From assembly GCF_058153355.1 (NCBI RefSeq), contig NZ_CM177019.1: DNA of 64,000 nucleotides; one strand, written 5' to 3'. Positions 20,601-22,375 of this stretch are shown here, one piece after another. A program made the position numbers. Each line of letters opens with the position of its first letter. The first letter of the stretch is position 1.

Positions 20601-22375
20601 CCGGAGCCTGCCACGCCACGGTGTGTGTTTCGCCAGTACGTGACGCGTCTGGCTGAGCCGCATCAAACGTGCCGCTGCTGATGGTCAGTACCGCATACGG
20701 CGTGGCAATGCGTTCTTCGCCAATCGCCAGACCGCCGTAAACCATGTGTTTCACTGTCGCTTTACCGTCCTGCACGCTAACGGCGCTGGCATCGTTCGAA
20801 ACCGCCGCTTTAAGGCGGTAACCCAGTTTTGCCGCCAGTAATTTGCCGCGACGGGTATTCGGCAACAGCACCAGACCGTCTGCGCCGTGCTGGCGAATAG
20901 TGTCAGCCATGACACCGGCGTAATCTTCGATCATCCGATCGTCCGGTTTGCCGCTTAATGTCCAGACATGATTAGCACCAAGCTGGATTGCCAGTGCGCC
21001 GTCGGCATCATTGAGGACAAAGGTGTTGATTTGATTAGCTAAAGCCTGCGCACCGTTCATCAGTTCCGGCAGACGAGAAGGGGTATCGCTGAATACCCAG
21101 ACTTGAGAAAACGTGTTCATAGCATCCCCTGTAATTAAATGACTTTGCGAAGATTTTCAGCAAATGCGGCGATCTGTTCTTCGCCGTCGCCTTCAATCAC
21201 GATGCGCTGACGCTCGCGCTGTTTCGGTGCGGCAACCTGTTGTTCAGACCAGGCTTCCACGGCGTTAAAGCCAATATCCGCCGCCGACCATACCTGGACT
21301 GGCTTTTTCGCCGCGCCGAGAATGGCTTTCATCGAAGGAATTTGTGGGGAATTGATATCAGTGGAAACAGCAACAACCGCAGGCAGCGGAATGCTTAAGG
21401 TTTCTGTTTCATCTTCCAGTTCGCGCTCAACGGTGAGGGTATCTGCCGTCAGGGAGATAATTTTGCTGACACCGTTAACTGCCGGAATATTGAGGATTTC
21501 GCCCACCAGCAGACCAACCTGCTGGGCATAAAGGTCGGAAGAACCATCGCCACAAAGGATCAAATCAAAGCCTGCTTTCTGGGCGGCAGCAGCCAGTGCG
21601 GTCGCCGTTTGTTGCGGCAGTGCCTGCTCGAACTGGTCATCAATCACCACAATCAGTTCATCCGGGCCGCGCGATAGCACATCTTTACGCCCTTTGGCGT
21701 TGGTCAGGGCTTTACCGCCCACACTTAAGGCCGTCACCTGCGCCTCTGCTGCCTGTTGCTTTAGCTGGCAAGCCGCTTCAATAGCGTTGAGATCGTATTG
21801 GCTTATTTTGGCATCGGCTTTACTGAAGTCTAACGAACCATCAGCATTATTGACCGCAATATCCTGTTCATCAGGCACGCACTTATAGCAAGTAATAATC
21901 TTCATTGCATCTCCAGAAATCATGAAGGAAACGTCGTTCATATCGGTAGTGTTAATTACAGATATCACGCCCTTTAATTTGGAAATAAAACTTTAATCAC
22001 CAATATTGAAAATGTCACACGCAGATAAATCCAACTTTCAATATTGTTAAGTTCCTCACCAATATTGAAAACACGGCGTAGCAAAAAGAAATTTTCAATA
22101 TTGTTTTATGGATCACCAATATTGAAAGTCAGATGCTATTTTTTCACTCAAACAGAATCATATTTAATTGATTAAGAAAGATTATTTTCATAAAAACCCC
22201 CTGTTTTTACCCGATATAAAAATGTGACAATAATCACAGAACGCAGCCTATTGAATACCCATTATGAGTTAGCCATTAACGCGTCCACGAGGTTAATAAT
22301 AATTATATTAAATGTTAACAAAAAATAAAACAAACGGGAACGCAAAATAAATATTCGTTTTCACAGTGGAATTAA

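What the first reader, a model, noticed from the sequence alone, without database searches (positions are those of the whole stretch)
21998..22128. Five alternating-orientation copies of a CAATATTG-core motif with about 57-bp periodicity in the divergent caiT/fixA control region
CACCAATATTGAAA occurs three times and its inverted form TTTCAATATTGTT twice, arranged as roughly 2.3 tandem units between two divergent anaerobic operons. This fits paired half-sites for the CaiF activator (and possibly CRP/FNR-type sites) and suggests cooperative, symmetric activation of both operons. The tandem-unit organisation itself seems more extensive than needed for a single activator site.
Basis: partly seen in the sequence, partly recalled or inferred. 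Interest (0 to 1): 0.3.

Follow-up and report, generated by a model that had tools for sequence, protein, structure and literature searches.

The report
Known CaiF operator sites, cai-fix region
The five repeated motifs are the already-described binding sites for CaiF, the activator of the carnitine-metabolism operons, sitting between caiT and fixA exactly as in E. coli K-12. The one modest addition is that the unpaired fifth copy inside the fixA promoter is at least as conserved as the published sites.

Summary
The exact 11-mer CAATATTGAAA occurs five times in alternating orientation at 22001-22127 and nowhere else in the 64 kb window.

The region lies between divergent fixA (- strand) and caiT (+ strand). 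It is 99% identical to the E. coli K-12 cai-fix control region.

Copies 2+3 (22036-22070) and copies 4+5 (22093-22127) each read TTTCAATATTG-N13-CAATATTGAAA. That is the published sequence of the two CaiF sites, F1 and F2 (Buchet 1999, as quoted in PMC12083890 and PMC3680233). The motif core is not a CRP or FNR site, although weak CRP-like 16-mers lie concentric with each CaiF site.

Comparison of 80 cai loci adds three points:
- The N13 spacer is invariant, in 85 of 85 pairs.
- The linkers between sites are not conserved.
- The number of full sites differs by genus: 1, 2 or 3.

Copy 1 is an unpaired half-site in the spacer of the candidate fixA promoter. It is the most deeply conserved element of the array, and its role is not covered by the literature I could read.

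Verdict: already known, low interest.

The parts
22036..22070 (.). fix-proximal CaiF site: TTTCAATATTG (22036-46), N13 spacer, CAATATTGAAA (22060-70). These are copies 2 and 3 of the finding.
   Evidence: Exact match to the published F-site sequence (PMC12083890). Identical to K-12. The N13 spacing holds in 85 of 85 pairs across genera.
22093..22127 (.). cai-proximal CaiF site: TTTCAATATTG (22093-103), N13 spacer, CAATATTGAAA (22117-27). These are copies 4 and 5.
   Evidence: It starts 57 bp from the first site. The equivalent spacing in other genera is 55-59 bp.
21997..22011 (+). Unpaired fifth half-site, TCAC-CAATATTGAAA (copy 1). Its 11-mer starts 35 bp before the fix-proximal site and has no partner 24 bp upstream.
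   Evidence: TCACCAATATTGAA is kept in 25-28 of 28 unique orphan contexts, and most positions in 27-28. The block is fully conserved in 24 sequences from 6 genera. The distance to the first full site is 35 bp in 38 cases, 36 in 4 and 37 in 1.
21990..22018 (-). Candidate fixA promoter: GTGACA (22018-22013), 17-bp spacer, TAAAGT (21995-21990). The unpaired half-site lies in its spacer.
   Evidence: Consensus scan only. It fits a fix transcription start near 21983. That start is derived from remembered CRP-site positions (-69.5 and -126.5; Buchet 1998, paper not held) applied to the CRP-like sites.
22045..22060 (.). CRP-like 16-mer TGTTAAGTTCCTCACC, concentric with the fix-proximal CaiF site.
   Evidence: Two mismatches to TGTGA-N6-TCACA. 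The spacer ends YYA...TCA(C/A) are conserved in 79 unique F sites.
22102..22117 (.). CRP-like 16-mer TGTTTTATGGATCACC, concentric with the cai-proximal CaiF site.
   Evidence: Three mismatches to the consensus.
22223..22238 (.). Perfect CRP site TGTGACAATAATCACA upstream of caiT. This is CRP site 1, centred at -41.5 of a cai start near 22272.
   Evidence: No mismatches. Both half-sites are conserved across genera. The -41.5 position is from memory of Buchet 1998.
21135..21905 (-). fixA, the first gene of fixABCX.
   Evidence: NCBIfam NF002888, 532 bits against a cut-off of 219.
22379..23893 (+). caiT, the first gene of caiTABCDE.
   Evidence: NCBIfam NF002887, 936 bits against a cut-off of 541.
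29645..30040 (-). caiF, encoding the activator that binds the motifs.
   Evidence: NCBIfam NF008549, 217.7 bits against a cut-off of 140. It is 128/131 identical to K-12 CaiF. Pfam family is CaiF_GrlA.

Best explanation
The array is the operator of CaiF, the carnitine-pathway activator, in the shared control region of the divergent caiTABCDE and fixABCX operons.

CaiF is encoded 7.5 kb away in this window. It is made under anaerobiosis, when FNR and CRP act at its own promoter. It is switched on by a carnitine-derived signal, crotonobetainyl-CoA. One CaiF molecule binds each 11-bp half-site. Two half-sites facing each other across exactly 13 bp make one site. There are two such sites 57 bp apart: 22036-22070 and 22093-22127.

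Together with cAMP-CRP, CaiF activates both promoters. CRP has a perfect site at 22223-22238 for cai and weak sites concentric with the CaiF sites.

Shown here:
- the sequence matches the published sites exactly;
- the region is near-identical to K-12;
- the flanking genes are as stated and caiF is present;
- the half-sites and their spacing are conserved across genera.

Inferred:
- the positions relative to the transcription starts rest on remembered numbers;
- binding in this particular strain is assumed, not tested;
- any role for the fifth, unpaired half-site in the fixA core promoter is an inference. I judge it a functional CaiF contact rather than a leftover.
For: - Two exact matches to TTTCAATATTG-N13-CAATATTGAAA, against 0.00 expected.
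- This is the published F1/F2 sequence (PMC12083890; PMC3680233).
- 254 of 257 columns are identical to K-12 over 21880-22136.
- The array region is present at 95% identity or more in 5388 of 5426 complete E. coli genomes.
- fixA, caiT and caiF are confirmed. None of the three CaiF differences from K-12 falls on the residues whose alanine mutants lost function (Y11, V42, N43, T46, Y47, R75).
- In 24 sequences from 6 genera the half-sites are conserved and the linkers are not.
- The N13 spacer is invariant in 85 of 85 pairs.
- CaiF with crotonobetainyl-CoA activates the fix promoter in biosensor constructs (PMC12083890).
Against: - The primary footprinting papers (Buchet 1998, 1999) are not in the library. 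The footprint limits, the F1/F2 naming and the transcription starts could not be read directly.
- CaiF stoichiometry is only 'speculated' to be dimeric.
- The fifth half-site is not accounted for by the two-site model.
- The invariant TCA(C) flank on every '>' copy, including the orphan that has no CRP left half, shows the two halves of a site are not equivalent.
Confidence: 0.9

Rival explanations
1. All five copies are equivalent, independent CaiF sites, each bound by a monomer or by a dimer on the palindromic CAATATTG core. On this view the published pairing into two N13 sites is a description rather than the functional unit.
For: - The 8-bp core is itself a perfect palindrome.
- The unpaired copy is as conserved as the paired ones.
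- Hafnia, Edwardsiella, Serratia H1w and Leminorella show only one copy with the TCAC flank.
- Every '>' copy has an invariant TCA flank that '<' copies lack.
Against: - The '<' to '>' spacer is exactly 13 bp in 85 of 85 cases, whereas the distance between sites drifts from 55 to 59 bp. That is the signature of a constrained pair.
- The literature describes two sites, each an inverted repeat.
Confidence: 0.12
2. The CAATATTG motifs are CRP or FNR sites.
For: CRP-like 16-mers with 2 and 3 mismatches overlap the inner ends of the half-sites. CRP is required for induction (PMC2131755).
Against: - The core does not match TGTGA-N6-TCACA or TTGAT-N4-ATCAA, and no FNR-like match with 3 mismatches or fewer falls in the array.
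- The FNR ChIP-seq study places FNR at caiF.
- The outer parts of the half-sites (TTTCAA, TTGAAA) are conserved beyond any CRP site.
Confidence: 0.03
3. The array is a neutral tandem duplication or a small repeated element with no regulatory role.
For: - The 51-nt units are 75% identical.
- Unit number varies from 1 to 3 among genera.
- One E. coli strain has a clean 59-bp unit deletion.
Against: - Across genera the motifs are invariant while the linkers are free to vary.
- Tandem Repeats Finder finds no array.
- The motif occurs nowhere else in the window.
- CaiF binding to these sites is published.
Confidence: 0.02

Closest known systems
CaiF sites F1 and F2 of the E. coli K-12 cai-fix intergenic region (Buchet et al. 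1999, Mol Microbiol 34:562, as quoted in PMC12083890 and PMC3680233)
   Same: The sequence is the same (TTTCAATATTG-N13-CAATATTGAAA, twice) and so is the position between caiT and fixA. The surrounding 257 bp differ from K-12 at three positions.
   Different: Nothing differs for copies 2 to 5. The fifth copy (22001-22011) is not part of the two-site description in the texts I could read.
CRP sites 1, 2 and 3 of the cai-fix region (Buchet et al. 1998, J Bacteriol 180:2599; recalled from its abstract, paper not held)
   Same: There is a perfect CRP site at 22223-22238 and CRP-like 16-mers at 22045-60 and 22102-17. Their 57-bp spacing and the 289-bp distance between the derived starts agree with the remembered -41.5, -69.5, -126.5 and 289 bp.
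   Different: These are separate elements that overlap the CaiF sites. They are not the CAATATTG motif itself.
GrlA at the ler (LEE1) promoter. GrlA is a homologue of CaiF (Pfam CaiF_GrlA).
   Same: GrlA is described as acting MerR-like on the -10/-35 spacing of its target promoter (PMC4856446). The unpaired CaiF half-site lies in the 17-bp spacer of the candidate fixA promoter.
   Different: This is an analogy for copy 1 only. The candidate fix spacer is already 17 bp. No binding or activation data exist for copy 1, and the GrlA target sequence was not compared here.

Membership tests
CaiF operator site (F1/F2 type) | An 11-bp perfect inverted repeat, TTTCAATATTG / CAATATTGAAA, separated by 13 bp | tested here: met
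   Two exact matches at 22036-22070 and 22093-22127. The definition is from PMC12083890.
CaiF operator site (F1/F2 type) | Located in the intergenic region between divergent caiT and fixA | tested here: met
   NCBIfam equivalog hit for CaiT and subfamily hit for FixA; ORF layout.
CaiF operator site (F1/F2 type) | Orthologous to the K-12 DNA on which binding was shown | tested here: met
   254 of 257 identical columns over 21880-22136.
CaiF operator site (F1/F2 type) | The cognate activator gene caiF is present | tested here: met
   Window 29645-30040 (- strand), 98% identical to K-12 CaiF.
CaiF operator site (F1/F2 type) | Physical binding by CaiF, and requirement for induction, in this strain | not testable with these tools
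   Needs EMSA, footprinting or reporter mutants.
CaiF operator site (F1/F2 type), applied to copy 1 (22001-22011) | A partner half-site in inverted orientation 13 bp away | tested here: not met
   By eye on the sequence, the 11-mer 24 bp upstream (21977-21987, ATTTGGAAATA) matches 4 of 11. No such partner is found in any genus. Copy 1 is a half-site, not an F site.
CRP site | Match to TGTGA-N6-TCACA | tested here: inconclusive
   The CAATATTG core does not match. The 16-mers inside the spacers have 2 and 3 mismatches, and 22223-38 has none. The footprints are remembered, not read.
FNR site | Match to TTGAT-N4-ATCAA | tested here: not met
   No match with 3 mismatches or fewer inside 21998-22128.
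Tandem repeat array | Head-to-tail copies detectable as an array | tested here: not met
   Tandem Repeats Finder gives 0 rows at minimum score 30. Only a two-copy 51-nt family at 75% identity is found.

The most novel reading that the evidence does not exclude
The unpaired fifth half-site (TCACCAATATTGAAA, 21997-22011) may be the ancestral and functional core of the system rather than a leftover of duplication. On this reading CaiF bound there, inside the fixA core promoter, would act from the -10/-35 spacer, as its homologue GrlA is said to do at the ler promoter. It could also account for the remembered report that about 50 bp overlapping the fix mRNA start are needed even for cai transcription. 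The upstream N13 sites, present in 1, 2 or 3 copies depending on genus, would then be an evolvable gain module that grows and shrinks by duplication or deletion of a 57-59-bp unit.
Probability: 0.3. Interest if true: 0.4.

Novelty: already known. Interest (0 to 1): 0.15.

Why it matters
For the scan, this closes the finding. It is a textbook operator, correctly recognised from sequence alone, and no new kind of element is involved.

The comparative results have some value for people who work on carnitine regulation or who build CaiF-based biosensors from the fix promoter:
- The 13-bp spacer is the constrained quantity.
- The number of full sites is naturally 1, 2 or 3.
- A fifth half-site inside the fix core promoter is more conserved than the promoter hexamers around it. 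Minimal sensor promoters that omit or alter it may therefore behave differently.

Tried and rejected
- Tandem Repeats Finder on 21800-22500 found nothing. The 'tandem unit' description is weak.
- Rfam at a permissive threshold on 21500-22700 found nothing. The very conserved fix leader is not a known RNA family.
- The primary papers (Buchet 1999; Eichler 1996, PMC177796; Buchet 1998, PMC107209) are not held. Footprint limits and transcription starts rest on secondary quotations and on my memory of the 1998 abstract.
- A literature search matching 'caif' anywhere in a word was swamped by unrelated terms.
- I looked for caiF in the 80 fetched loci, to test whether the motif and the activator occur together.
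- I looked for a degenerate partner for copy 1, 24 bp upstream. It matches only 4 of 11, so this was rejected.
- The five records at 99% identity or more do not point to a closely matching genome. No genome matches the variable segment above about 81%, and at least one short high-identity partial match is listed (H15, 34 bp). The best 6-kb match is 98.5%.

Full report
**What is there.**
The window between 21906 and 22378 is the intergenic region between fixA (21135-21905, - strand) and caiT (22379-23893, + strand). Both genes pass the NCBIfam curated cut-offs. caiF, the pathway's activator gene, lies at 29645-30040 on the - strand. Its product is 128/131 identical to K-12 CaiF and belongs to Pfam CaiF_GrlA.

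Within the intergenic region the 11-mer CAATATTGAAA occurs exactly five times in strictly alternating orientation:

| Copy | Start | Strand |
|---|---|---|
| 1 | 22001 | + |
| 2 | 22036 | - |
| 3 | 22060 | + |
| 4 | 22093 | - |
| 5 | 22117 | + |

It occurs nowhere else in the 64 kb. The 8-mer core is enriched, 7 against 1.59 expected, with no shuffle reaching 7. Only the 'tandem unit' wording is loose: Tandem Repeats Finder finds no array, and the two 51-nt units are 75% identical.

**What it is.**
Copies 2+3 and copies 4+5 each form TTTCAATATTG-N13-CAATATTGAAA. There are two exact matches against 0.00 expected.

That is the sequence given in the literature for the two CaiF sites, F1 and F2, of the cai-fix regulatory region. 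PMC12083890 and PMC3680233 both quote it from Buchet et al. 1999.

The window matches E. coli K-12 at 254 of 257 columns over 21880-22136. The 156-bp array region is present at 95% identity or more in 5388 of 5426 complete E. coli genomes. RefSeq annotates nothing there, which is why it looks unexplained in raw sequence. The window itself is an Escherichia genome, at best 98.5% identical to complete E. coli genomes over 6 kb.

**How it works.**
From the literature:
- CaiF is produced under anaerobiosis, with FNR acting at the caiF promoter (PMC3688515).
- It is activated by crotonobetainyl-CoA.
- With cAMP-CRP it turns on both divergent operons (PMC12083890; PMC3680233; PMC2131755).
- One CaiF is modelled per half-site.

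In the sequence there is a perfect CRP site at 22223-22238. CRP-like 16-mers with 2 and 3 mismatches are almost concentric with the two CaiF sites, at 22045-60 and 22102-17.

I recall from the abstract of Buchet 1998 (paper not held) that CRP sites lie at -41.5 of cai and at -69.5 and -126.5 of fix, and that the two starts are 289 bp apart. Applied to the sites, these numbers give a cai start at 22272 and a fix start at 21983. Those are 289 bp apart, and the two weak sites are 57 bp apart, so the recollection and the sequence agree.

On that basis the CaiF sites are centred near -70 and -127 of fix, and near -219 and -162 of cai. These positions are inferred, not read.

**Comparative evidence.**
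One scan of species-representative genomes with CaiT returned 80 loci. fixA is divergent and adjacent to caiT throughout the Enterobacterales.

- In 24 sequences from Escherichia, Citrobacter, Salmonella, Pseudocitrobacter, Phytobacter and Intestinirhabdus, the five half-sites are conserved. The linkers (22021-33, 22071-88) and the stretch 22128-22220 are not.
- Across all loci the '<' to '>' spacer is 13 bp in 85 of 85 pairs. The site-to-site distance drifts between 55 and 59 bp.
- This is the pattern expected of a protein-constrained pair.
- The CAATATTG core matches neither the CRP nor the FNR consensus.

**What goes beyond the published description.**

1. *The number of full sites differs by genus.*

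| Full sites (plus the unpaired copy) | Where |
|---|---|
| 1 | Pluralibacter, Yokenella, Atlantibacter, Trabulsiella, and two unnamed Enterobacteriaceae |
| 2 | The Escherichia-Citrobacter-Salmonella group |
| 3, at a 59-bp period | Eight Proteus species |

One E. coli O127:H6 derivative has a clean 59-bp deletion between direct repeats of copies 1 and 3. It leaves one full site plus the unpaired copy. The array therefore changes by gain and loss of whole units.

2. *Copy 1 has no inverted partner in any genus, yet it is the best-conserved element.*
- TCACCAATATTGAA is kept in 25-28 of 28 unique contexts, and most positions in 27-28. The flanking hexamer positions vary.
- Its distance to the first full site is 35 bp in 38 of 43 cases.
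- Hafnia, Edwardsiella, Serratia H1w, Limnobaculum and Leminorella have no full site. They have a single TCAC-flanked copy, in a context (AAATAATACCTAGATCAC | CAATATTGAA | GTGTTACA) that resembles the E. coli copy-1 context.
- Limnobaculum and a few of the others also carry isolated distant half-site-like matches. Budvicia has two direct copies. Shewanella has none.

3. *Copy 1 lies in the 17-bp spacer of the only promoter-like match on the fix strand.*
That match is GTGACA-17-TAAAGT at 22018-21990, which fits the derived fix start. GrlA, a homologue of CaiF, is described as a MerR-like activator acting on the -10/-35 spacing of the ler promoter (PMC4856446). I also recall that the 1998 abstract reported a 50-bp region overlapping the fix mRNA start as necessary for cai transcription.

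Together these make a functional role for copy 1 plausible. Nothing here shows binding. I put the probability at about 0.3 and list it as the novel reading, not the verdict.

4. *Every '>' copy, including copy 1, is preceded by an invariant TCA(C) that '<' copies lack.*
In the full sites this doubles as the right half of the CRP-like motif. In copy 1 there is no CRP left half, so the flank may belong to CaiF recognition. This is unresolved.

**Verdict.**
The feature is already known: these are the F1/F2 operator sites of the cai-fix control region. Interest is low. The conserved unpaired half-site and the variation in site number are minor additions that simple promoter mutations would settle.

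Noticed in passing
window 22137-22222: The stretch between the cai-proximal CaiF site and CRP site 1 is only 69% identical to K-12, while its flanks are 99% and 96%. No complete E. coli genome matches this 123-bp allele above about 81%. Only a TTGATT core near 22168 is kept across genera. This divergence is far above the roughly 1.5% seen over the surrounding 6 kb and is unexplained.
   Followed up: partly
L082 2410-2822 (E. coli O127:H6 EPEC1, NZ_LT903847.1); equivalent to window 21997-22055: A clean 59-bp deletion between direct repeats of TCACCAATATTGAAA (copies 1 and 3) leaves one full CaiF site plus the unpaired copy and removes the GTGACA -35 candidate. At most 28 of the 5388 matching E. 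coli records have less than 80% coverage of the array region.
   Followed up: partly
L027-L034, L046 (Proteus spp.), intergenic positions about 96-284 from the fixA ATG: Proteus species carry three full CaiF-type sites plus the unpaired copy at a 59-bp period. Providencia has the unpaired copy, a degenerate site and one good site.
   Followed up: partly
L044, L045, L047, L049, L050, L053, L023 (Limnobaculum, Edwardsiella, Serratia H1w, Hafnia, Leminorella), about 130-160 bp downstream of their TCAC-flanked CAATATTGAA site: These lineages have a conserved TTTGATTAAGATCAC upstream of CATTATAA on the caiT side. It is FNR-like (TTGAT-N4-ATCAc) and sits where E. coli has the perfect CRP site, suggesting a swap of global regulator at the cai promoter.
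   Followed up: no
window 21906-21982: The fixA leader, between the derived transcription start and the ATG, is almost invariant in 24 sequences from 6 genera. That is more conserved than most of the intergenic region. Rfam finds no known RNA family there.
   Followed up: partly
window 22009-22019 and 22219-22229: AAAATGTCACA next to copy 1 resembles AAAATGTGACA, the left half of CRP site 1 (family D4). It coincides with the candidate fix -35 hexamer GTGACA on the other strand.
   Followed up: partly
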